From contig CAVUGS010000002.1 in assembly GCA_963741075.1 (NCBI GenBank), forward strand, positions 219,669 through 283,668: a stretch of DNA of 64,000 nt, written 5' to 3'. Position 1 is the stretch's first letter. Each line of letters starts with the position of its first letter. This document shows positions 1,064-63,003 of this stretch, piece by piece. A program made the translations under genes and the position numbers. This DNA is from an uncultured Thermoleophilia bacterium. GTDB taxonomy: Bacteria > Actinomycetota > Thermoleophilia > UBA2241. The notes beneath the pieces are model-generated. The model was not told the DNA's origin and did no database searches. It saw nothing but the letters and a program-made list of their open reading frames with translations.

Positions 1064-1196
1064 GCCGGTGCCCAGCGCTACCCACTGCTCGGTGGGCGTC
1101 TGGAGTGCGGGCAGTTCGGCCACGGGCGCGAGCCCAGGGCCCTGACCAGACGACTGGACGTCACGGGTCTCGGCTCGTGAGGGTGGAGGGAGCGAC

Positions 1197-2615
1197 GTGC
1201 GACCGAAGTTCGAGTATCTGAGCGAGTCGGAGAAGCAGTTCGTCCACGAACAGACCGTGCGCCTGCTCGAGGAGGTCGGCGTCGCCTACAACACGCCGAC
1301 GCTGACGGGACTGCTCAAGGAGGCCGGCGCCATCGTCGACGAGGCGAGGCTGCAGGCCAAGCTGCCGTGGGAGCTCGTCGAGCGCTGCCTGCGGCAGGTC
1401 CCGCGGGAGATCCTGCTCGCCGGACGCGACCCGGAGTACGACTGCACGGTCGGCGCCGGCGGCATGCTCTACACCACCGACGGCGCCGCGACGTACATGC
1501 TGGACGACCTCACGGGCGAGCGGCACGAGGGCACTGAAGCCGACCTCGCCGCGATGATGCGCCTGTACGACGCCGTCCCTGAGATCGACTTCACGTGGGC
1601 GACGATCACGCCTGGAGACGTCGACGCGCGCGTCGGCAACCTCGAGATGGCGCGCATCACGTTCGAGAACTCGCGCAAGCACCTGCAGGACGAGGTGCGT
1701 ACGCCCGGCCAGGCGCCGGTGATGATCGAGCTCCTGTAGGCGATCGCCGGCGCGCCGCTCAGCGAACGGCCGATCTGGTCGGCCACGAACTGCACCATCG
1801 CGCCGCTCCAGCACGACGCCGAGATGACGGAGGCGCACGTCCTGATGGCCAAGGCTGGCTGTCCCATCTTCGTGCTGCCGATGCCGCAGATGGGCACCAC
1901 GGGCCCCATGAGCGTCCTCGGCACGAGCATCCTCAACATGGCCGAACTGCTCAGCGCGGTCGTGCTGTTCCAGCTCGCGGTGCCCGGATGCCCCATGGTG
2001 TCGGCGGTCGGCTCCGCCGTCGCCGAGATGCGCAGCGGGCTGTACCTCTCGGGCGCCCCGGAGGACGGGCTCATCAACGTCGTCTGCATCGAGATGAGCC
2101 GCTTCTACGGCCTGCGCACGCAGGGCAGCGCCGTGAGCTGCGACGCCAAGGCTTGCGACCTGCAGGCCGGCGCCGAGGGCATGCTGACGGGCATGGCCAG
2201 CGCGCTCGCAGGAGCGGACATCATGCTGGCCTTCGGGCTCATGGACAGCGCGCAGACGGCCAGCCTCGCCAAGACGGTGCTGGACGCCGACACGGTGAAC
2301 GCCATCGAGCGCTTCATGCGCGAGGATCCGGTGGACGAGGCCCGGGCGCTGATGGACGACCTGGTCGAGGTCGGCATCGGCGGGCACTTCCTGGCGCGCA
2401 GGAGCACCCGGCAGCTGTACCGTGCGGGTGAGCTCTGGCAGCCCCACCTGTGGCACCGCGGGACGTTCGAGCAGCACGCCGGCACGCCGCTGGTCAAGGA
2501 TGCCTGGGACAGGGCGCAGGCGCTGATCGCGGAGAACGACGTGCCGCCGCTGCCGGAGGACGTCCGGCGGCACGTGCGCGCCGTCATCGACGCGTACGCG
2601 CTGGGCGCGGCCTGA
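1197..2615 (+). CDS. MttB superfamily methyltransferase with an in-frame TAG at codon 181 (1737-1739)
   Basis: ORFs 1197-1739 and 1824-2615 are in the same frame, separated only by TAG; 472 aa if read through. Clear paralogue of the upstream gene; GGAGGG RBS before the GTG. Confidence 0.88.
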
Positions 2616-28144: not shown

Positions 28145-28504
28145 GGGGGCGAACAGGTCTCGACATGGGCTGTACCGAGGTGGGAGCAGCAGGCCGAGGT
28201 CCGGTGGCCTCGTTAAACTGCCGGAACACACTACTTGCCGAGAATAATTCTCTCGCACTCGCCGCCTAAGTAATTAGGTGACGCATCGCACCCGGCTCGC
28301 CCGCGGCCGGGACTCGCGGTGTCATCAAGCGGGCTGGGGTGCGGTCGCGCTGCTCCGAGCGAGCGCACCCGAGACTGATCGGAGCTGGCGACCGGCACCC
28401 GGCCGACGCGGGGGCCGCGAGCGAGATGAAATGCGCCGGCTAAGCCTGTAGAGACTCCGCCGAGGCGTCCGTGGACGCGGGTTCGATTCCCGCCGCCTCC
28501 ACCA
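28145..28504 (+). ncRNA. ssrA: tmRNA, tag (A)AENNSLALAA
   Basis: 5' GGGGGCG pairs with 3' CGCCTCC-ACCA with the alanyl G3:U pair; T-arm GGTTCGATTCC; tag ORF 28237-28269 ends LALAA-TAA. Confidence 0.96.
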
Positions 28505-51934: not shown

Positions 51935-53125
51935 GTGGACGTAGGCAAGGCGAACGAGCTCTTCGAGATGGCGGTGCGCCTCGCGACCGACGCGGAGACG
52001 CTCCGCGACGCGCTGCAGGTCGAGTTCCTCAGCGGCCAGCTGGCCGAGGTGGTGGCCACCGACTACGACCTCGGCGAGGTGCTGCGCGTCGAGCAGATCT
52101 TGGGCGGCTACACCAACCTCAGCTTCGCCGTCGTCGTCGCGGACGCCCGAGGGCGAGCAGCGGTACTTCGTGCGCAAGTACAACCGCGTCAACACCGAGC
52201 GCGAGGTGCAGTTCGAGCACGCGCTCGTCAATCACATCAGCGGCAAGGGGTTCCACATCGCCGCCCAGGTGTACCCGAGCAAGGGCGGCGCGACCTACGT
52301 CACGCGCGAGGAGACCATCGCCGGCGAGCGCGTCACGCGGCTCTTCGCCGTCTACGAGATGCTCGAGGGCGAGGACAAGTACACCTGGATCAGCAACCGC
52401 CTGCACCGACACGGAGTTCGAGAACGGCGCGCGCGTGCTGGCCCGGTTCCACGCGCTCGCCCACGACTTCGACCCCGGCGACCTTGCCCGCGAGCAGCCG
52501 CCGATCATGGACTTCGTCGCGCCAGTTCCCGAGCATCTTCGAGGCCTACGCGGCCGCAGTCCCGGGGCACCGCGTTCGACGAGTACTACCTCGCCAAGCT
52601 GCCGAGCATCCTCGAGGCCGTCCGCAGCGGCGTGGCCATCGGGCGCCGACCTCGAGGGGATGCCGCGGGTCCCGGTGCACTGCGACTATCACCCCGGCAA
52701 CCTCAAGTGGGTCGACGAGCAGGGCGTCGGGCTGTTCGACTTCGACTGGTCCAAGCTCGACTACCGGCTCTTCGACGTCGCGCAGGGCATCGTCTACTTC
52801 TGCAGCTCGTGGGAGGGCCCGGACGACGGCGAGCGTGCGTCTCGACAAGGCGGCCATCTTCGTGCGCGCCTACCAGGACGAGGCGGCGCGCTTCGAGGTC
52901 CCCGGCCCGATGAGCGCCGAGGAGCTGGCCCTGCTGCCGCGCATGGTCGCCAACGCCAACCTGTACATCCTCAACTGGGACCTGATGGCCTACTACGAGG
53001 ACCCGAGCGTCGACGTCGTCGAGTACCTCACCTACCTCGAGTCACCAGGTCCGCTTCATGGAGTACATCGAGGTCACCATCTGCACGAGCTCGCCCACGA
53101 TCGCAGAGGAGGCATGACGGCATGA
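51935..53125 (+). CDS. APH-family phosphotransferase, homoserine kinase type II / hydroxylysine kinase-like (indels)
   Basis: GGYTN loop, HCDYHPGN catalytic loop and LFDFDW. Confidence 0.85.
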   Translation: MDVGKANELFEMAVRLATDAETLRDALQVEFLSGQLAEVVATDYDLGEVLRVEQILGGYTNLSFAVVVADARGRAAVLRAQVQPRQHRARGAVRARARQSHQRQGVPHRRPGVPEQGRRDLRHARGDHRRRARHAALRRLRDARGRGQVHLDQQPPAPTRSSRTARACWPGSTRSPTTSTPATLPASSRRSWTSSRQFPSIFEAYAAAVPGHRVRRVLPRQAAEHPRGRPQRRGHRAPTSRGCRGSRCTATITPATSSGSTSRASGCSTSTGPSSTTGSSTSRRASSTSAARGRARTTASVRLDKAAIFVRAYQDEAARFEVPGPMSAEELALLPRMVANANLYILNWDLMAYYEDPSVDVVEYLTYLESPGPLHGVHRGHHLHELAHDRRGGMTA

Positions 53126-54568
53126 GGTTCGTCGAACTGCTCACGGAGGCGGAGGTACGCCGCACGCACGAGGCCTCGCTCGAGGTCCTCGAGACGGTCG
53201 GCATCCTCGCCCACTTCGCGCCCGCGCGCGAGGTCTTCAAGAAGCACGGCTGCACGGTCGACGACGAGACGGGGCTCGTGCGGTTCCCGGCCGCCGTCGT
53301 CGAGAAGTACCGCAAGATGGCGCCGCCGAGCTTCACGTTCCGCGGCCGCGACCCGCAGTACGACCGCACCATCCCCGACGACGGCCCGATCGTCGTCACC
53401 GGCTCGTCGGCGCCCAACGTCGTCGACCCGGTCACCGGCGTGGAGCGCCGCGCGACGTCGGGCGACATCGCCAACATCGCCCACCTCATCAACGAACTGC
53501 CCGGGTTCGACGTGTTCAGCATCTCCACGCTGGCCGACGACGCGCCCGAGGGGCAGTTCAGCCTGAGCCGGTTCTACCCGGCGCTCAAGAACTGCCTCAA
53601 GCCCGTGCGCAGCAACACGCCGAACATGAACGACCTGCGCCAGGTCGTGGAGCTCGGCGAGCTCATCGCCGGCGGCAAGGAGGCCTACGCCGAGCGGCCG
53701 TGCATCAACCATCACTACTGCCCGATGGTGAGCCCGCTGACCATGGACGTGGACTCCACCGAGGCCGTCATGTGGCTCACCGAGCGCGGTCTGCCGGTGT
53801 ACACGACGGTGGTCCCCAACGCCGGCCTCACCTCGCCGATGACGCTCATGGGCACCCTCGTGGTCGGCAACGCCGAGTTCCTGGCGATCACCGTGTTCCA
53901 GCAGATGGTCAAGGAGGGCACGCCGGTCATCTACGCGAGCCTGCCGACCGTCGCCGACATGCGCACCGGCGCCTACGCGCCGGGCGCCATCGAGACGGGC
54001 ATCCTGCTCGCGGCGCAGGCGCAGCTGGCGCGCTTCTACGGCGTGCCGTCCGGCGGCTACATCGGCCTCACCAACGCGCACTCCAACGACGCGCAGGCCG
54101 GGCTTCGAGACCGGCATGAACACCGTGCTCGGCGTGTCGGCCGGGGCGACGCTGCTCAACATGGGCGGCCTCTTCAGCTCGCTGATGGCGTTCGACTTCG
54201 CCAAGGCGGTCGTCGACAACGAGATCGCGATCATGGACAAGCGCGCCTACCGCGGCCTCGAGTTCAGCGAGGAGAACCTCGCGCTCGACGAGATCGCCGC
54301 GGTGGGCCCCGGCGGCAGCTACATGGGCCGCAAGCACACCAAGGCACGCATGAAGACCACGGCCGTCCTGCCCAAGCTGGCCAACCGCGACATGCGCCAG
54401 CAGTGGGAAGACGCCGGCCGGCCGACGATCCACGACCGCGCCCTCGCCGAGGCGCGCCGCATCCTGGCGCAGCCCAACGAGGCGGTCTGGGACGCCGAGC
54501 TCGACGCGAAGATCAGAGAGCACTTCGCCGGCCTCGTCGCCGGCGACGCGACACCGCTGGAGGGCTGA
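53122..54568 (+). CDS. MttB superfamily methyltransferase, non-pyrrolysine (one indel)
   Basis: VSPLTMD, AGLTSPMTLMG, ADMRTG and YGVPSGGYIGLTNAH (Leu at the Pyl position). Confidence 0.9.
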
Positions 54569-54657: not shown

Positions 54658-55305
54658 ATGGCGGACACAGACCACTTCGACAAGCTCAAGCAGTCGATCA
54701 TCGACCAGGACGAGGACCAGGTCCTCGCCGCCGTCAACGCCGCGCTGGACGACGGCGTCGAGGCCAAGGCCATCATCGACCAGGGCCTGCTTCCGGGCCT
54801 CAACGTGATCGGCGAGCAGTTCGAGTGCGAGGACATCTTCCTCCCCGAGCTCATGCAGGCGGCCCTCGCCTTCCAGTCGGCGATGGTGATCCTCGAGCCG
54901 AAGATCAAGGAGCAGGGCGCGGCGGGCGAGAAGAAGGGCAAGATCGTCCTCGGCACCGTCAAGGGCGACCTCCACTCGATCGGCAAGAACATCCTCAAGC
55001 TCCTCTACGAGACCTCCGGCTTCGAGGTGTGGGACCTGGGCATCGACGTCGACCTCTTCCAGTTCGTCGACAAGGCCAAGGAAGTCGATGCCGACATCAT
55101 CGCCATGTCGGCGCTCCTCACCACCACGCTGGTGGGGCAGAGGGACGTCATCGACGCGCTCAAGGACCAGGGCCAGCGCGACAACTTCAAGGTCATCATC
55201 GGCGGCGGCGCGACCACCAAGGAGTGGGCCGACACCATCGGTGCCGACGGTTGGGCGGCCACGGCGTACGAGGCCGTGACTCTGTCCACCAAGCTGGTCT
55301 CCTGA
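54658..55305 (+). CDS. Methyltransferase cognate corrinoid protein (MtbC/MttC family)
   Basis: IFLPELM, GTVKGDLHSIGKNI (DxHxxG), MSALLTTT and IIGGG. Confidence 0.95.
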   Translation: MADTDHFDKLKQSIIDQDEDQVLAAVNAALDDGVEAKAIIDQGLLPGLNVIGEQFECEDIFLPELMQAALAFQSAMVILEPKIKEQGAAGEKKGKIVLGTVKGDLHSIGKNILKLLYETSGFEVWDLGIDVDLFQFVDKAKEVDADIIAMSALLTTTLVGQRDVIDALKDQGQRDNFKVIIGGGATTKEWADTIGADGWAATAYEAVTLSTKLVS

Positions 55306-55345: not shown

Positions 55346-56729
55346 ATGATCGACCTTATCGAGGTCTTCGATCGCGCCGAGACCGGCCCGCTCACCTCTG
55401 AGACCGACTACTACATGAAGCGCTACGTCCCCAAGCTCACCGAGGTGATCGCGCGTCACAAGGTGAAGTGGGACAAAGCAGACCATCATCAACACCGACG
55501 ACACGCTCACCGACGGCGTGTTCCAGGCGGCCGTGGACCTCATCGCCGAGGCCGGCGCGTACTGCCCCGAGACCAACCGCGTGATGCAGTTCACGCGCGA
55601 CGAGATCGTCCTCGCCTGCGAGCAGGCGCCGAAGGCGGCCACGTTCGGCGAGGGCCGCGAGCGCAACGTCATGCGCGGCCGTCGCCCCGACACCACCGAC
55701 GACCGTCCGTGGGTGCACGTCGGTGGCGGCATCTACACGACCGACGAGCAGGTCTACATGGACACCGTCGAGAAGATGGCGTCCTTCAACATCGTCAACT
55801 CGGTGAGCGTCCCCTCGATCCTGCACCTGCGCGGCAAGGACTCGCGCGTGCGCTCGCCGCAGGAGATCCTCGCGGCCTGCAAGACCGTGCGCCTGGCGCG
55901 TGAGGGCATCCGCCGCTCCGGCCGCGCCGGCCTGCCGATCATCAACGGCATCTCCGCGGCCTCCCAGCCGGCGTCGATGTTCGCCGCGACCTATCCGGAC
56001 TTCGGGCTGCGCCCGAGCGACGGCTTCCTCATCGACTTCCTCTCCGAGATGGTCGTCGGGTACGAGGCGCTGCAGAAGGTCGCCTTCTACAACAGCATCA
56101 GCGCCAACATCGGCTCCACCTCCACGCCGCTCTTCGGCGGCTACGCGGGCGGCGCCGAGGGCGTCGCCGTGACGGCCACCGCGTACATGATCATGGGCAA
56201 CCTGATCTTCCGCGGCAGCTACCACTACAACGCTCCGCTGCACAGCAAGCTGCACCTCTCGTCCACCAAGCCGCTCATCTGGGCGATCGCCATGTCGAAC
56301 GCCGCCATCGGCCGCAACATGGGCTACCCGATGGTCAACCTGCCGTACCTCGGCGGCGGCTCGGGCACCAAGCAGTACCATTACGAAATGGCCTGCTATA
56401 TGCTCGCCGTCGTGACGTCTGGTGGAAACGTCTTCTCGGGTCACCCTGCCATGGCGGTCCAGTCGGACTCGCTGGTCCCGGACGACCACAAGTTCCATGC
56501 CGAGATCGGCCTCGCCGCCTCCAACCTCACGCGCGCCGAGGCCGAGCCGCTCGCCCAGAAGCTCTTCCCGCTCTTCGGCGACAAGCTCAAGGACCCGGAC
56601 AAGGGTCTGACGTTCCAGGAGGTCTACGACATGAAGACCAAGCGGATCGCCAACGCGGACTACCAGAAGGCCATGGACGAGGTCCGCGAGGAGCTCGCCG
56701 GCATGGGTCTCGAGGTCCCCGTTTCGTGA
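55346..56729 (+). CDS. Monomethylamine methyltransferase (MtmB) family protein, non-pyrrolysine (one indel)
   Basis: FDRAETGP, GAYCPETNRV, GRAGL, GGYAGGAEG and DPDKG..FQEVYD; no in-frame TAG. Confidence 0.85.
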
Positions 56730-58879: not shown

Positions 58880-60646
58880 ATGGCGACTGACGCTAGCAAG
58901 TCGGGCGAGCAGACACTGTTCGTCCGCAAGGCGAGTGGCCTGGTAAAGGGCTGGTCGTCGATGGACGGGTTCCGGTATTCGTTCTTCTCCGTGAACCTGT
59001 TCCTCGCGATCTGGTCGATTCGCGTACGCCACCTTCATCCCGGGTGGCAGTCTGTTCTGGTCGATCGTCATCACCGCGATCTTCATCGTCCTCGAGATCA
59101 TCGTGTACGCGGGTCTGATCTCGGCGATGCCGCGCGCGGGTGGCGACTACGTGTGGATGACACGCATCTTCAACAGCGCGATCGGCTTCATCATCGCCGC
59201 TGTAGGCTGGTGGTTCATCCTCTGGCTCTGGACCCCGATCTACGCCGACATGGGCGTCCAGACGACGGTCAAGCCGATCTTCCGCATCCTGGGTCTCAAC
59301 GGGGCGGCCGACTGGCTGAGCAGCCGCACAGGGCATCTTCGTCGCGTCGCTGGTGGTCATCGCCATCGCCTCGATCCTGGTCGCCGTCGGCATGAAGACC
59401 TACGCCAACTTCCAGAAGTGGGCCATGTGGATCGGCCTCGCCGGCGTGATCGTCTGCGGCATCCTGCTGCTCGTCACTTCCGGCGACTCGTTCAAGCAGA
59501 AGTTCAACGACGCCGCCAACAAGTACTACGGCGGCGACAAGGGCATGCTCAACCTCCAGAAGTACGAGACCGACGAGTCCGGCTACTTCGTCTACGACGA
59601 CACCGGTCTTGCCATCAAGACTGTGGAGGGTCGAGACGTACCCCGACGCGTTCACGCAGCTCGAGGCGGTCGGCTCTGGTACGGGCATGCCGACCTCGAC
59701 GTTCTCGGGCGGCCTGAGCTGGGCCACCTGGACGCTCATCCCGTTCATGATGTTCTGGATGGCGTGGCCGAACTGGGGGGCGACCCTCTACGGCGAGGTC
59801 CGAGGGGCCAAGGACTTCCGCAAGAACATCTACCAGATGCTCGGCGGGCTCCTGGTGCCGACGCTGCATCGCCCTCGCCTTCCTTGGGCTGATGACCTGG
59901 AAGGTGGGCTACCAGGCGTTCATGGGGATGATGGCGTCGTGGTGGTACTACTCCACCGCAGGGACGAACATCTCCCCGATCGGCGGCGACTACATCTCGC
60001 CGACGGCGATGATCTCCTGGATCGTGCCCAACGCGGCGTTCCAGGTCATCCTCATCGCCGCCATCTCGCTCCTGCTCTTCGGCTGGTTCGGTACGCTCTT
60101 CCTCTCGTCGACGCGCATGATCTTCGCCTCGGCGTTCGACCGCATCCTGCCTGAGCGCGCGGCCAAGGTGACCTCCGGCGGCGTGCCGACGGTCGCCCTG
60201 CTGCTCATGACGATCCCCTCGATCATCATGGCCGCTCTCTACGCCTACACGCCGATCGACGCCGAGAAGGGCGTGACCATCGTCAAGCTCTTCACCTACG
60301 ACGCGACGGTGGGCATCCTCATCATGTTCCTCGGCTCCGCGCTCGCCTTCATGATCATGCGCTGGCGCGCCCGGGGCATCTGGGAGAACAGCGCGCTGCC
60401 CAAGTCGGGCATCGCCGGCCTCCCGTGGATGTCGATCATCGCCGCCATCTACTCGGCGTTCCTGGTGTTCAACCTCTACCTGTTCGTCAAGGACGCCCTC
60501 TACGGCGTGAACAACAGCAAGTCCGCCATCTTCATGGGCATCCTGTACGTCGCCGCGCTCATCATCTGGGTCGATCGCGTGGTCGACCCGCAAGCGTCAG
60601 GGCATGGCGCTCGGAGACCGTCGCCAAGGAGATCCCGGTCGAGTAG
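58880..60646 (+). CDS. APC family permease (indels)
   Basis: LFVRKASGLVK, MPRAGGDYVW and RMIFASAFDRILP; about 12 TM segments. Confidence 0.88.
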
Positions 60647-60859
60647 TCGCCGCAGGCGGACTACCGTCGCGAGGGCACGAAGTGCCCGCCGAGCGACGTA
60701 AGCACGAGCGGCATCGATTGAAGTGACGTGGGGCGCCGGCGGCGGCCGTAGAGCCGCCGCCGGCGCCCTCACGAAGCGCACACGCAGAGCAGACAAGATC
60801 AGGCAAACCCCCGGGACGGCCTGGGACTTCTGATCAGCGACACAGCGGAGGCCGTATAG

Positions 60860-62263
60860 ATGAAGATAATGACGAGAATGGGTGACTCCTCGAACGTGGA
60901 GCTCACCAAAGACGAGCTGCGCACGGAGTTCATCACGGGCTCCGAAGAAGCGGCGAAGAAGGCCAAGATCCCCGTCCTCACCGAGAACGAGATCGACTAC
61001 CTGGTCGACATGTTCGCGGCGCCGACGCGCATCTGGGGCGTCCAGCGCGGCAACGAAGTCGTCATGACCAAGGACGGCTGCGTCAACGCGCTCAACTCCT
61101 CGCGCATGTCGAGCGGCGTGGTCGCGCCGGTCAACCGCGAGGTCGGCGTGCGCCTCTTCGAGTCGATGCTCGGCTTCGACTCCATGGAGATCTCGCACAA
61201 CGACTACTCGGTGAAGCCGCAGCGGTTCCTCAAGGCGCTCGAGATGCTCCACGTCGAGCTCCTCATGGAGACGACGATCTTCCCGCTGCTCTACGGGTTC
61301 ATGCCGAACCTCGGGCTGTACTACCGCCCGGACGGTTCGTTCGAGAACCCGAGCGACCTCATGCCGATCGGCAAGATCGACGAGGCCCGCAAGACGCAGG
61401 AAGAGGCGGGCAAGGCCTGTCTCGAGGACTGCATCGAGATGAGCGACTGCATGGTCGAGATGGGCGCCGACGGCATCGACTTCGACACCGTCGCGTCGAC
61501 GGGCGACGCGGAGTTCTACTCCGTGCTCAAGGCCTGCGACCACGTCGCCAACGAGACCGGCCTGCCGGTGGAGATCGGCATGTCGGCTGAGATGGTCCTG
61601 GGCTTCCACGGCCAGCTCGAGTACAACGGCAAGCGCCTCGCCGGCATGTGGCCGCACCAGCAGCTGCAGGTCTGCGAAGAGGCCGGCTGCGCGATCTTCG
61701 GCCCGGTGTCCAACACCAACACCAAGAAGACCGTGCCGTGGAACCTCGCCAAGGCGCTCACCTTCGTGAAGGCCTGCACCGAGATCGCCAAGATCCCCGT
61801 GCACCCGAACGTGGGCATGGGCGTCGGCGGCGTGCCGATGTTCGAGACCCCTGCCGTCGACGTCGTGACGCGCTGCAGCGCCGCCATGATCGAGATCGGC
61901 CACGCCGACGGGTTGTAGGTGGGTACTGGTGACCCCGCCGGCATGCACATGGCGCATCTGCTGGCCTCGTCGATGGGTGGGATCCGGGCCGCCGGAGATC
62001 TGGTGGCAAGGATGCAGCTCAGCAAGAAGATGAGGATCACGGAAGCCAAGCAGTACGTCGCCGACAAGCTCCACGTGACGCCGTTCGACCTGTCCGATCC
62101 GACCATGATGCGAGGTCTCAGGGAAGAGCTCGACATCGGGACGATCACGGGCGTGCCCGGCATCGCCAAGGGTCTTGCCGCCAAGGCGCGTATCAGCCAG
62201 CTGCTCGACATCCCCATCAACAGCGTCGAGCAGTTCAAGAACAAGACCGGACTGCACTACTGA
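60860..62263 (+). CDS. mtbB: Dimethylamine:corrinoid methyltransferase with in-frame amber (pyrrolysine) codon 353
   Basis: TRMGD N-terminus, [23 protein letters not shown], then ADGL-TAG(61916-61918)-VGTGDP; 467 aa if read through. Confidence 0.93.
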
Positions 62264-62269
62264 GTCTGT

Positions 62270-62320
62270 GAGGGGGCCGGCCGGCCGCGTCAGCGGCCGG
62301 CCGGCCCTCGTTCTTCTTTC
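62270..62320 (+). terminator. Intrinsic terminator after mtbB
   Basis: GGGCCGGCCGGCCGC/GCGGCCGGCCGGCCC hairpin followed by TTCTTCTTT. Confidence 0.75.
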
Positions 62321-62336
62321 CACCGCGAAGGAGACC

Positions 62337-63003
62337 GTGGACCAGGACCGCCGAGAGCTCGTGATGTTCGACTTCGACGGCGTCATCGTCGACTCGCTCG
62401 ACGTCTTCAGCGCCGCGTTCATCGACGCGTGTACCGCGGCCGGTGTGGAGGGCTTCGCTACGGTCGACGATCTGCTCGCGGTCATGGAGGACAACTTCTA
62501 CGCGGGCATGCGCGCGCGGGGCGTGGACGACGCGCGCGTCGCGGAAGTACTGCACCGGCTCGGCCAGGCGCTGATCCGCGCCCGGCACTGGCTCAAGCCG
62601 TTCCCGCTGGTGCCGCGAGGTGCTCGAGGACCTCGCCGACGCGCGCACCGTGGTGGTCGTGACCTCGAGCCCGGCAGAGGTCGTGGAGGGCTGGCTGCGC
62701 GTGCACGAGGTGCACGGCGTGACCGAGGTCGCCGGCGCCGAGACGGCGCGCAGCAAGGTCGAGAAGATCCACGCGCTCCTGGCCCGGTTCCCCGGCCAGG
62801 AGGTCTACTGGTACGTCGGCGACACCGCCGGCGACATCCGCGAGGCGCGCGAGGCCGGCGTGACGCCGCTCGGCGTCGCCTGGGGGTGGCACGAGCCGGA
62901 GATGCTGGTCGCGGCCGGCGCCGAGCGCATCGCCGCCGCGCCGGCCGAGCTGCTGACGATCATCGCGCCGGAGCTCGCCGGCGACTTCTTCGGCGCCGGC
63001 TGA
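62337..63003 (+). CDS. HAD-superfamily hydrolase/phosphatase (one indel)
   Basis: FDFDGVIVDS, VVTSS, YVGDTAGD and GVAWG. Confidence 0.9.

What the first reader, a model, noticed from the sequence alone, without database searches (positions are those of the whole stretch)
60860..62263. Pyrrolysine-encoding dimethylamine methyltransferase in a high-GC, probably actinobacterial genome
Seen: two ORFs in one frame separated by a single TAG in the context IGHADGL-TAG-VGTGDP; readthrough gives 467 aa with no indels. Known: methanogen MtbB is about this length and has Pyl in the motif DGI-Pyl-IGVGDP; bacterial Pyl use is described mainly in Firmicutes and Deltaproteobacteria. Inference: this organism has an expanded genetic code, and standard annotation would split the gene.
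Basis: partly seen in the sequence, partly recalled or inferred. Interest (0 to 1): 0.9.

Follow-up and report, generated by a model that had tools for sequence, protein, structure and literature searches.

The report
Pyrrolysine dimethylamine methyltransferase gene, Thermoleophilia
This is a genuine dimethylamine methyltransferase gene whose internal TAG codon encodes pyrrolysine, in a soil actinobacterium that carries the pyrrolysine machinery; such genes have already been reported from this bacterial group.

Summary
Window 60860-62263 (+) is one mtbB gene of 467 codons with an in-frame TAG at 61916-61918.

- **Family match:** it matches PF09505 and TIGR02368 along its full length, across the TAG.
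- **Conserved TAG:** the TAG is present at the same codon in 84 of 84 occurrences in 80 related loci.
- **Known RNA element:** the TAG is position 1 of a full-length match to Rfam RF02509 (PYLIS_2, the mtbB pyrrolysine insertion sequence).
- **Machinery:** the genome holds pylB, pylC, pylD, tRNA-Pyl(CUA), pylSn and pylSc. pylB has a 1-nt frame break in this indel-prone assembly.
- **Spread:** PylSc is in 51 of 55 sampled genomes of the same family. This genome has 8 mtbB loci, each with one TAG.
- **TAG is still a stop:** about 21% of crude ORFs end in TAG and RF1 is present, so this is codon ambiguity, not reassignment.

It is not new in kind. PylRS was reported in two Actinobacteria in 2022. 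Pyl-encoding mtbB and mttB expressed by Actinobacteriota MAGs were reported in 2023.

One side observation: the Leu codon before the TAG is always the rare TTG or TTA.

Verdict: a real feature, and a new member of a known kind.

The parts
60847..60851 (+). Shine-Dalgarno-like GGAGG, 8 nt before the ATG of mtbB
   Evidence: Read directly from the sequence.
60860..62263 (+). mtbB, dimethylamine:corrinoid methyltransferase. It has 467 codons with Pyl at codon 353 and a TGA stop at 62261-62263.
   Evidence: PF09505 E 5e-182 over residues 4-462. TIGR02368 scores 501.8 bits against a cut-off of 369.1.
61913..61915 (+). Leu codon TTG immediately 5' of the Pyl codon, a rare codon under synonymous constraint
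   Evidence: The codon is TTG in 76 and TTA in 6 of 82 distinct sequences. The 15 other conserved Leu columns are 0-3% TTR, with one at 29%. Genome-wide, TTG is 1.75% and TTA 0.03% of Leu codons.
61916..61918 (+). In-frame TAG read as pyrrolysine (codon 353)
   Evidence: TAG is at this codon in 84 of 84 motif occurrences in 80 loci. It is model position 1 of RF02509.
61916..62015 (+). PYLIS_2, the Rfam RF02509 'pyrrolysine insertion sequence mtbB'
   Evidence: 62.8 bits against a gathering score of 36, E 9.2e-15, model positions 1-100 of 100. The 5' hairpin of the model has several non-standard pairs here.
61989..62006 (+). 7-bp hairpin CCGCCGG-AGAU-CUGGUGG, the 3' hairpin of PYLIS_2, 70 nt after the UAG
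   Evidence: Two pairs lie at synonymous third positions and covary: CG49/AU15/UA10/UG6 and CG28/GC27/UG20/UA5. 99.3% of cells are paired. 0 of 500 shuffles reach the covariation score.
62272..62319 (+). Intrinsic-terminator-like hairpin (17 pairs, 16 G-C) with a T-rich tail, directly after the mtbB stop
59103..60701 (+). APC-family permease directly upstream, a candidate methylamine transporter. Its frame is broken in this assembly.
   Evidence: The C-terminal piece matches PF00324 and frame changes are visible. The intact 582-aa ortholog at L070:3977-5725 matches PF13520 and PF00324.
54658..55305 (+). Corrinoid protein (B12-binding_2 plus B12-binding), the nearest candidate methyl acceptor
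   Evidence: The ortholog at L070:722-1378 matches PF02607 and PF02310.

Best explanation
Window 60860-62263 is a functional mtbB gene of a Thermoleophilia (Actinomycetota) bacterium.

**Decoding.** Its UAG at codon 353 is decoded as pyrrolysine by a tRNA-Pyl(CUA). That tRNA is charged by a split PylRS (PylSn plus PylSc) with pyrrolysine made by PylBCD. Decoding happens in competition with RF1, because UAG also remains a normal stop in this genome. The UAG sits in a conserved nucleotide context. A rare UUG or UUA Leu codon precedes it, and the Rfam PYLIS_2 element follows it. The 3' hairpin of that element is maintained by compensatory changes.

**Function.** The 467-residue enzyme would transfer a methyl group from dimethylamine to the Co(I) of a corrinoid protein. 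From there a second methyltransferase passes the methyl group on, probably to tetrahydrofolate and the acetyl-CoA pathway.

**Shown here:** the gene, the position and conservation of the TAG, the RNA element, the presence of the machinery, physical linkage in relatives, and the gene's presence in RNA libraries.

**Inferred:** that Pyl is actually inserted, the substrate, the acceptor, the role of the codon context, and the fate of the methyl group.
For: **Family membership.** The gene matches PF09505 and TIGR02368 full length, across the TAG.

**TAG position.**
- 84 of 84 occurrences in 80 loci have TAG at this codon. The loci come from independent assemblies and span two paralog clades, at 81-99% and 65-68% identity.
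- RF02509 matches model positions 1-100 starting at the TAG, 62.8 bits against 36.
- The 3' hairpin shows covariation.

**Machinery.**
- PylSc scores 323.6 bits against a cut-off of 178.15.
- PylSn scores 125.6 against 51.15.
- PylC scores 343.4 against 248.3.
- PylD scores 199.3 against 150.05.
- PylB is found in two frames.
- tRNA-Pyl(CUA) lies at C19:227364-227436. It folds as a cloverleaf with a 5-nt D loop and a long anticodon stem.

**Not a binning artefact.** In 5 of 5 same-genus genomes examined, an mtbB with one TAG lies on the same contig as the pyl cluster.

**The trait is conserved.**
- PylSc is in 51 of 55 genomes of the family.
- This genome has 8 mtbB loci, each with one TAG.
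- It has 5 mttB sites with the canonical context, and an mtmB with TAG.

**Partner genes.**
- 16 corrinoid-protein loci.
- 3 RamA-like activase loci.
- URO-D-type and pterin-binding methyltransferases.
- AcsB/CdhC.

**RNA libraries.** Contigs from RNA libraries of 3 of 4 runs laid, each from a different study, bridge the TAG with more than 31 nt on each side. These are X11 record 8, X19 record 19 and X20 record 28.
Against: - pylB is split by a 1-nt frame break near C19:224500 in this assembly. If the break is real, the cell could not make Pyl.
- No protein evidence exists here for Pyl at residue 353.
- TAG ends 305 of 1454 crude ORFs and RF1 is present. Termination at codon 353 must therefore compete with Pyl insertion.
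- TAG-ended ORFs show no enrichment of nearby backup stops.
- The RNA-library evidence comes from assembled contigs at 90% likeness or more. They can be from relatives or from DNA carry-over. 176 rows of differences were not shown, so I can only say that none of the 40 rows shown lies at 61916-61918.
- The genome is 66.87% complete by marker count.
- The 5' hairpin of PYLIS_2 is poorly formed here.
- Two further helices that I proposed have no compensatory changes.
Confidence: 0.92

Rival explanations
1. The gene and the Pyl site are genuine, but this paralog does not act on dimethylamine. It is one of 8 MtbB-family copies in the genome and may have a different methylated amine as its main substrate.
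For: There are eight mtbB loci in one genome, and relatives have 2-10 matches each. The paralog clades are only 65-68% identical to this copy. The neighbours are a non-Pyl MtmB-family gene, a non-Pyl MttB-family gene and an unusual permease rather than a classical mtbC.
Against: The gene passes the NCBIfam equivalog cut-off for [dimethylamine--corrinoid protein] Co-methyltransferase. The residues around the Pyl site are the family's, DGL-O-VGTGDP against the model's O-IGVGDP. I found no MtbB-family member with another substrate in the passages I read.
Confidence: 0.15
2. In this particular strain the Pyl system is broken because the pylB frameshift is real. The UAG at codon 353 then terminates translation, or is decoded only if pyrrolysine or a precursor is taken up.
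For: pylB matches in two different frames, with a 1-nt break near C19:224500.
Against: - Similar frame breaks occur in many unrelated genes of this assembly: RF1, a permease, a HAD hydrolase, MttB-family genes and two mtbB copies. This pattern is typical of assembly indel errors.
- pylB is intact in 4 of 5 same-genus genomes. The fifth is broken at a different position.
- All 8 mtbB loci keep their TAG. Six of them are open on both sides of it in one frame, and the two that change frame do so in this indel-prone assembly.
Confidence: 0.05
3. The TAG is an ordinary stop or a decayed gene: two ORFs, or a pseudogene, with no recoding.
For: Standard gene calling gives a 352-aa product. TAG is a common stop in this genome.
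Against: - The 114 codons after the TAG keep the frame, the coding GC profile and the family match to the end of the model.
- The TAG is conserved in 84 of 84 occurrences.
- A real private nonsense TAG in the same window looks different. At 1737-1739, the six orthologs whose sequence matched my search pattern read GAG there, and the codon before that TAG is the common CTG.
- The PYLIS_2 match begins at this TAG.
Confidence: 0.02
4. Assembly or binning artefact: either the TAG is a sequencing error, or the mtbB contig and the pyl contigs belong to different organisms.
For: The assembly is indel-prone. The bin also holds two tmRNA genes with the same tag peptide.
Against: The same TAG is in 80 loci from many assemblies, short-read ones included. 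The contigs have the same GC, 0.705-0.709. In 5 of 5 relatives examined, mtbB and the pyl cluster share one contig.
Confidence: 0.01

Closest known systems
MtbB of Methanosarcina (archaeal dimethylamine:corrinoid methyltransferase with Pyl), with its Rfam element PYLIS_2 (RF02509)
   Same: Same protein family, matched full length over the curated cut-offs. Same place of the UAG. Same RNA family starting at the UAG, with nucleotide-level likeness in the 3' hairpin: GGAGAUCUGGUGGCAAGGAUGC here against the model's GGaGAcCUuGugGCaaGgAUGc. The length of about 467 aa with Pyl near residue 356 in M. barkeri is recalled, not tested.
   Different: The host is a 70% GC bacterium, not a methanogen. Val-Gly-Thr follows Pyl here instead of the model's Ile-Gly-Val. 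The 5' hairpin of the model is poorly formed. The methyl group cannot go to coenzyme M; a folate and acetyl-CoA route is inferred.
Pyl-encoding mtbB and mttB of Actinobacteriota MAGs in Stordalen Mire, genus Bog-752 (Ellenbogen et al. 2023, PMC10805028; passages seen)
   Same: Same phylum and most likely the same lineage. The locus from the record titled 'isolate bog_752' (L060) encodes an MtbB 83% identical to this one, with the same TAG. That paper reports expression. Here, RNA-library contigs cover the gene.
   Different: From the passages I read, that paper identified Pyl genes by truncation at the amber codon. Those passages do not describe the pyl gene set, the PYLIS element or the codon context.
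Bacterial Pyl users with split PylRS (Firmicutes such as Desulfitobacterium and Acetohalobium; Deltaproteobacteria)
   Same: pylSn and pylSc are separate genes, as in all bacterial cases counted by Guo et al. 2022 (PMC9630628, passage seen). UAG stays in use as a stop. Pyl is tied to methylamine methyltransferases.
   Different: The phylum differs. The gene order is pylB-pylC-pylD-pylT, then pylSn, a corrinoid gene, and pylSc on the opposite strand. The pylT-pylSc-pylBCD-pylSn order of Desulfitobacterium is recalled, not tested. There are far more mtbB copies here, 8 loci.
[quoted passage not shown] 2025; seen only as cited in passages of PMC13695967)
   Same: It uses the same tRNA-Pyl and PylRS system.
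   Different: TAG is not reassigned here. It ends 305 of 1454 crude ORFs, close to its share of stop trinucleotides in all frames, and RF1 is present.

Membership tests
MtbB, dimethylamine:corrinoid methyltransferase (PF09505 / TIGR02368) | Full-length match to the family models above their curated cut-offs | tested here: met
   PF09505 scores 606 bits against 25, residues 4-462 on profile positions 4-463 of 463. TIGR02368 (equivalog) scores 501.8 against 369.1.
MtbB, dimethylamine:corrinoid methyltransferase (PF09505 / TIGR02368) | In-frame UAG at the family's conserved Pyl position | tested here: met
   84 of 84 occurrences in 80 loci. All 13 aligned database homologs stop at DGL. The UAG is position 1 of RF02509, whose consensus encodes O-IGVGDP.
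MtbB, dimethylamine:corrinoid methyltransferase (PF09505 / TIGR02368) | mtbB-type PYLIS element after the UAG (Rfam RF02509) | tested here: met
   62.8 bits against a gathering score of 36, full model length. The 3' hairpin is supported by covariation. The 5' hairpin is weak here.
MtbB, dimethylamine:corrinoid methyltransferase (PF09505 / TIGR02368) | Corrinoid acceptor protein and reductive activase encoded in the genome | tested here: met
   A corrinoid gene lies at window 54658-55305. The genome has 16 B12-binding_2 loci and 3 RACo/RamA-like loci. Which one is the cognate partner is not shown.
MtbB, dimethylamine:corrinoid methyltransferase (PF09505 / TIGR02368) | Methyl transfer from dimethylamine to the corrinoid protein; pyrrolysine present in the mature protein | not testable with these tools
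   This needs an enzyme assay and mass spectrometry.
MtbB, dimethylamine:corrinoid methyltransferase (PF09505 / TIGR02368) | Fold like the solved Pyl methyltransferases (TIM barrel) | tested here: inconclusive
   No solved relative by sequence. The AlphaFold2 model has mean pLDDT 64.7 and pTM 0.70. Foldseek gives one hit at E 1e-3 or better, a DHDPS-type barrel with TM 0.24/0.35. The other listed hits are mostly barrels of unrelated enzyme families at similarly weak scores.
Pyrrolysine decoding system (pylT, pylS, pylBCD) | tRNA-Pyl with anticodon CUA | tested here: met
   ARAGORN calls tRNA-Pyl (cta) at C19:227364-227436. It folds as a cloverleaf at -36.7 kcal/mol, z -3.03, with one base between the acceptor and D stems, a 5-nt D loop and a short variable region.
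Pyrrolysine decoding system (pylT, pylS, pylBCD) | Pyrrolysyl-tRNA synthetase: catalytic PylSc plus the tRNA-binding PylSn | tested here: met
   TIGR02367 scores 323.6 bits against 178.15 at C29:60-785. TIGR03912 scores 125.6 against 51.15 at C19:228527-228787.
Pyrrolysine decoding system (pylT, pylS, pylBCD) | Biosynthesis genes pylC and pylD | tested here: met
   PylC scores 343.4 bits (joined) against 248.3. PylD scores 199.3 against 150.05.
Pyrrolysine decoding system (pylT, pylS, pylBCD) | Intact pylB | tested here: inconclusive
   There are two matches in different frames, 104.6 and 323.6 bits, each below the cut-off of 348.2, with a 1-nt break. pylB is intact in 4 of 5 same-genus genomes, at 423.8-453.8 bits. 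The assembly has many similar breaks.
Genome-wide UAG-to-Pyl reassignment | UAG no longer used as a stop; release factor 1 lost | tested here: not met
   TAG ends 305 of 1454 crude ORFs. prfA scores 434.3 bits against 423.25.

The most novel reading that the evidence does not exclude
In this Thermoleophilia family UAG has two meanings, and the choice is set in cis. At true Pyl sites a rare UUG or UUA Leu codon is kept in the P-site position, against a genome-wide usage below 2%, and in mtbB the PYLIS_2 hairpin is kept by compensatory change. Together these would tip the competition with RF1 towards Pyl-tRNA. That would make the lineage a natural system for working out the context rules of pyrrolysine insertion in bacteria. 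With 8 mtbB copies per genome and the trait in 51 of 55 sampled species, it would also be a major and overlooked Pyl-dependent methylamine consumer in soils and peat.
Probability: 0.25. Interest if true: 0.6.

Novelty: new member of a known kind. Interest (0 to 1): 0.3.

Why it matters
- **Annotation.** Gene callers cut this gene, and all its listed database homologs, at codon 353. Methylamine metabolism in these common soil and peat Actinomycetota is therefore under-annotated.
- **Ecology.** The lineage carries the whole Pyl system as a conserved family trait and has many Pyl methyltransferases per genome. Such bacteria may compete with methylotrophic methanogens for di- and trimethylamine. 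That bears on methane budgets, the theme of PMC10805028.
- **Mechanism.** A 70% GC genome makes nucleotide-level constraints around the UAG easy to see. The rare UUG codon and the compensated hairpin offer a way to test context effects on Pyl insertion.

None of this changes the known picture in kind.

Tried and rejected
**Structure.** There is no solved relative by sequence. An AlphaFold2 model from a 20-row alignment was mediocre, with pLDDT 64.7 and residues 62-146 and 354-376 below 50. Foldseek against the PDB gave only weak hits, mostly barrels of unrelated enzyme families. I draw nothing from it beyond 'compatible with a barrel'.

**A second Pyl gene in the window.** The MttB-family ORF at 1146-2615 has an in-frame TAG at codon 198. 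None of the listed matches in 56 family genomes has a TAG there. The six orthologs whose sequence matched my search pattern read GAG there. I rejected it as a Pyl site; it is a private nonsense change or an error.

**Backup stops.** TAG-ended ORFs are not followed more closely by TGA or TAA. The median distance is 109 codons, against 69 after TGA. There is no signal.

**Other helices.** A helix enclosing the UAG (61910-61935) and a long-range helix (61965-61971 with 62029-62035) are nearly invariant and show no compensatory change. They are not supported, though the first would fit the UUG codon.

**Promoter.** The scan found none.

**Literature.**
- 'pyrrolysine' plus 'Thermoleophilia' gave one paper. 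I saw it as a listing only, and its topic is unrelated.
- 'Bog-752' gave only PMC10805028.
- 'pyrrolysine' plus 'Actinomycetota' or 'Actinobacteriota' added nothing on Pyl in this phylum beyond PMC10805028.
- 'pyrrolysine' plus 'codon context' plus 'UAG' gave 42 papers, of which 15 were listed. I read passages of one, PMC13663744, and found no statement on the codon before the Pyl UAG. This does not show that none is in print.
Those of PMC10805028 and PMC9630628 may name these very genomes.

**RNA runs.** The listed X16 contig reaches only 29 nt past the TAG, so I do not count it as bridging.

**Limits of my gene calls.** ORF counts come from my own crude caller based on length and GC profile. 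They are not a real annotation.
Full report
**Observation.** On the + strand, an ATG at 60860 opens a frame of 352 sense codons. A TAG lies at 61916-61918. The same frame then continues for 114 codons to a TGA at 62261-62263. Reading the TAG through gives 467 residues with the context IGHADGL-O-VGTGDP. A GGAGG lies 8 nt before the ATG. A strong terminator-like hairpin with a T-rich tail lies at 62272-62319.

**What the gene is.** The read-through protein matches Pfam PF09505 (Dimeth_Pyl) in one stretch, residues 4-462 on profile positions 4-463 of 463, with E 5e-182. It passes the NCBIfam equivalog TIGR02368, [dimethylamine--corrinoid protein] Co-methyltransferase, at 501.8 bits against a cut-off of 369.1. 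Both parts have the coding GC pattern of this 70% GC genome.

**Is the TAG the Pyl codon?** Four independent lines say yes.
1. None of the 120 listed database homologs is full length. 113 are 346-356 aa, that is, gene callers stopped at this codon. All 13 that I aligned end in DGL.
2. In 80 related loci from public genomes, all 84 occurrences of the motif have TAG at this codon. The loci span two paralog clades, at 81-99% and 65-68% identity.
3. Rfam RF02509, 'PYLIS_2, pyrrolysine insertion sequence mtbB', matches 61916-62015 over its full length at 62.8 bits against a gathering score of 36. Its first position is on the T of the TAG.
4. A negative control lies in the same window. The MttB-family ORF at 1146-2615 also has an in-frame TAG, but no listed relative in 56 family genomes shares it. 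The six orthologs whose sequence matched my search pattern read GAG there. A private nonsense codon therefore looks quite different from the conserved TAG of mtbB.

**The machinery.** The window's genome is 3.33 Mb in 29 contigs, with 66.87% completeness by markers.
- pylB lies at C19:224204-225213, pylC at C19:225260-226423 and pylD at C19:226495-227277.
- A tRNA-Pyl with anticodon CUA lies at C19:227364-227436.
- pylSn lies at C19:228527-228787.
- pylSc lies at C29:60-785 on the minus strand.
- All but pylB pass their curated cut-offs.
- The tRNA folds into a cloverleaf with a single base between the acceptor and D stems, a 5-nt D loop, a long anticodon stem and a very short variable region. 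That these are the hallmarks of tRNA-Pyl is my recollection.
- pylB is split by a 1-nt frame break.
- In five same-genus genomes, pylB lies 6-7 kb from pylSc in convergent orientation. It is intact in four and broken at another position in the fifth.
- That spacing puts this genome's pylSc just across the break between contigs C19 and C29.
- A corrinoid-protein gene sits inside the locus, at C19:230039-230251.

**Why I read the pylB break as an assembly error.** Frame breaks of the same kind occur in RF1, in the permease and the HAD gene next to mtbB, in MttB-family genes and in two mtbB copies. I therefore read the pylB break as an assembly indel, but I could not prove it.

**Not a binning artefact.** In all five relatives examined, an mtbB with one TAG lies on the same contig as the pyl cluster.

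**Whose genome.** Of the 80 loci, 58 come from records titled Thermoleophilia bacterium. Another 21 are titled Actinomycetota or Actinomycetes bacterium, and one Deltaproteobacteria bacterium. The best matches, at 97-99% identity, are all Thermoleophilia.

**How wide the trait is.** I sampled 301 genomes of the class, this one included, and PylSc passes its cut-off in 60 of them. By family, not counting this genome, it matched in 51 of 55 genomes of the window's own family and in 9 of 55 of one other family. It matched in none of the 190 genomes of the ten remaining families. These are samples, and relatives are not independent.

**This genome's other Pyl genes.**
- 8 mtbB loci, each with one TAG.
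- Five mttB sites with the canonical AG(A/L)-O-(G/A/S)DSK context.
- A fragmented mtmB with a TAG.
- Many non-Pyl MttB-family genes.
- 16 corrinoid-protein loci.
- Three RamA-like activase loci.
- URO-D-type and pterin-binding methyltransferases.
- An AcsB/CdhC gene close to one activase and one pterin-binding methyltransferase on C15.

The organism thus looks like a corrinoid-dependent methylotroph with an acetyl-CoA pathway.

**How UAG is read.** TAG is not reassigned. In my crude ORF set it ends 305 of 1454 ORFs, against 1091 for TGA and 58 for TAA. This is close to TAG's share of stop trinucleotides in all frames. RF1 is present. TAG-ended ORFs have no excess of nearby backup stops. In 17 of the 84 related mtbB copies, the next in-frame stop after the Pyl codon, which closes the gene, is itself TAG. 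Decoding at codon 353 must therefore compete with termination, as in other Pyl-using bacteria.

**Two nucleotide-level constraints stand out against the high-GC background.**
- *The PYLIS_2 3' hairpin (61989-62006, CCGCCGG-AGAU-CUGGUGG).* It has two pairs made of synonymous third positions, and these covary: CG 49, AU 15, UA 10, UG 6, and CG 28, GC 27, UG 20, UA 5. One unpaired case occurs in each, among 81 distinct sequences. Overall 99.3% of its cells pair, and 0 of 500 shuffles reach the covariation score of the tested structure. When the partners are slid, only 33-53% of cells pair. Swaps occur even within the 97-99% clade, with one C-C intermediate. The caveat is that the structure was derived from these sequences.
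- *The Leu codon just before the UAG.* It is TTG in 76 and TTA in 6 of 82 distinct sequences, and never CTN. The 15 other conserved Leu columns of the same alignment are 0-3% TTR, with one at 29%. Genome-wide, TTG is 1.75% and TTA 0.03% of Leu codons. Within this genome, 7 of 8 mtbB sites have TTG before the TAG, as do all 3 mttB sites where the preceding residue is Leu. The private nonsense TAG has CTG before it.

A cis effect of the P-site codon or tRNA on the contest between Pyl-tRNA and RF1 is my inference. It is untested.

**Expression.** Six of the 24 listed runs are metatranscriptomic and hold 37-48% of the gene's sampled words. I laid four of them, each from a different study. Three have a contig that bridges the TAG with more than 31 nt on each side. 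Such contigs can come from close relatives or from DNA in the library, so this is supportive and not decisive. It agrees with the published expression of Pyl-type mtbB by Actinobacteriota MAGs (PMC10805028, passages).

**Neighbourhood.** I read the gene order most cleanly in a 98% identical short-read relative, L070:
1. corrinoid protein;
2. an MtmB-family gene of 460 aa without any TAG;
3. a metallophosphoesterase;
4. a 582-aa APC-family permease;
5. mtbB;
6. a HAD hydrolase.

The window has the same order, preceded by a non-Pyl MttB-family gene with a frame break.

**Comparison with what is known.**
- Guo et al. 2022 counted PylRS genes in 'two Actinobacteria' among 81 bacterial genomes, always as separate pylSn and pylSc (PMC9630628, passage). 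This count is repeated in PMC11764691.
- Ellenbogen et al. 2023 reported that some Actinobacteriota MAGs of a permafrost mire express Pyl-encoding mttB and mtbB. They name genus Bog-752 among the most actively methylotrophic bacterial genera at the site, alongside RBG-16-64-13 and Bog-1198. A record titled isolate bog_752 carries an MtbB 83% identical to this one.
- Have et al. 2013 had already derived a consensus structure for the mtbB PYLIS region (PMC3639795, passages), and Rfam holds it.

The finding is therefore true, and a new member of a known kind. In the searches I ran I did not find a description of three things: the family-wide spread in Thermoleophilia, the number of mtbB copies, or the constraint on the codon before the UAG. 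Supplements were closed, and most subscription papers are not in the library.

**Verdict.** The novelty is modest and I score interest at 0.3. The most novel reading still open is a cis-set dual meaning of UAG in this lineage, at probability 0.25.

Noticed in passing
window 1146-2615 (+), TAG at 1737-1739: An MttB-family gene (PF06253, E 1.3e-80) has an in-frame TAG at codon 198, which is not the MttB Pyl position. None of the listed matches in 56 family genomes has a TAG there. The six orthologs whose sequence matched my search pattern read GAG (Glu). It is a private G-to-T nonsense change or an error. In a Pyl-decoding cell it might be partly read through.
   Followed up: yes
window 61913-61915, and the same position in L018-L097: The Leu codon before the Pyl TAG is TTG (76) or TTA (6) in 82 of 82 distinct mtbB sequences. 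Genome-wide TTR is below 2% of Leu codons, and other conserved Leu columns of the gene are 0-3% TTR. The three mttB Pyl sites in this genome where Leu precedes the TAG also use TTG.
   Followed up: partly
window 55518-56729 (+); L070:1419-2801: This is an MtmB-family gene (PF05369) without any in-frame TAG. In the clean relative it is a full-length 460-aa ORF matching profile positions 1-450. It lies directly after a corrinoid-protein gene. It is a non-Pyl MtmB homolog of unknown substrate, and I did not work out which residue replaces Pyl.
   Followed up: partly
window 53122-54568 (+): A non-Pyl MttB-family gene changes frame by +1 near 54100, within the stretch encoding ...NDAQAG / FETGMN... 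The corrinoid gene at 54658-55305 follows it.
   Followed up: partly
window 59103-60701, 62337-63003; G000 C19:224500, C29:44821-45872, C12:67619-68975, C9:176412-177692: Many genes change frame in mid-gene: the permease, the HAD hydrolase, pylB, RF1 and two mtbB copies. The assembly looks prone to 1-nt indels, so the 66.87% marker completeness may be an underestimate. Single frame breaks should not be read as pseudogenes.
   Followed up: partly
window 28145-28504 (+); G000 C24:15891-16251: There is a tmRNA in the window (Rfam 151.7 bits, tag AENNSLALAA) and a second tmRNA with the same tag peptide on contig C24. Two URO-D (HemE-like) genes with nearly equal scores lie on C17 and C21. The bin may hold duplicated regions or two strains.
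   Followed up: no
L026, L028, L035, L037, L040, L058, L067, L074, L076, L077, L079, L081, L086, L093-L096: In 17 of 84 related mtbB copies the next in-frame stop after the Pyl codon, which closes the gene, is itself TAG. One mRNA then carries UAG both as Pyl and as terminator.
   Followed up: no
G000 C19:224204-230251 and C29:60-785: The pyl locus order is pylB-pylC-pylD-pylT, then pylSn, then a corrinoid-protein gene, then pylSc on the opposite strand. It spans a contig break. The same spacing of pylB and pylSc, 6-7 kb and convergent, is seen in five same-genus genomes.
   Followed up: partly
G000 C15:140402-147448: A pterin-binding methyltransferase, a RamA-like activase and an AcsB/CdhC gene lie within 7 kb. 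This looks like an acetyl-CoA pathway cluster and suggests methyl groups from amines feed acetyl-CoA synthesis or its reverse.
   Followed up: no
L082 (record titled Deltaproteobacteria bacterium MAG): This is the only one of the 80 mtbB loci not labelled actinobacterial. Its gene is 67% identical and has the same TTG-TAG context and hairpin as the Thermoleophilia paralog clade. It may be a mis-binned contig or a recent transfer.
   Followed up: no
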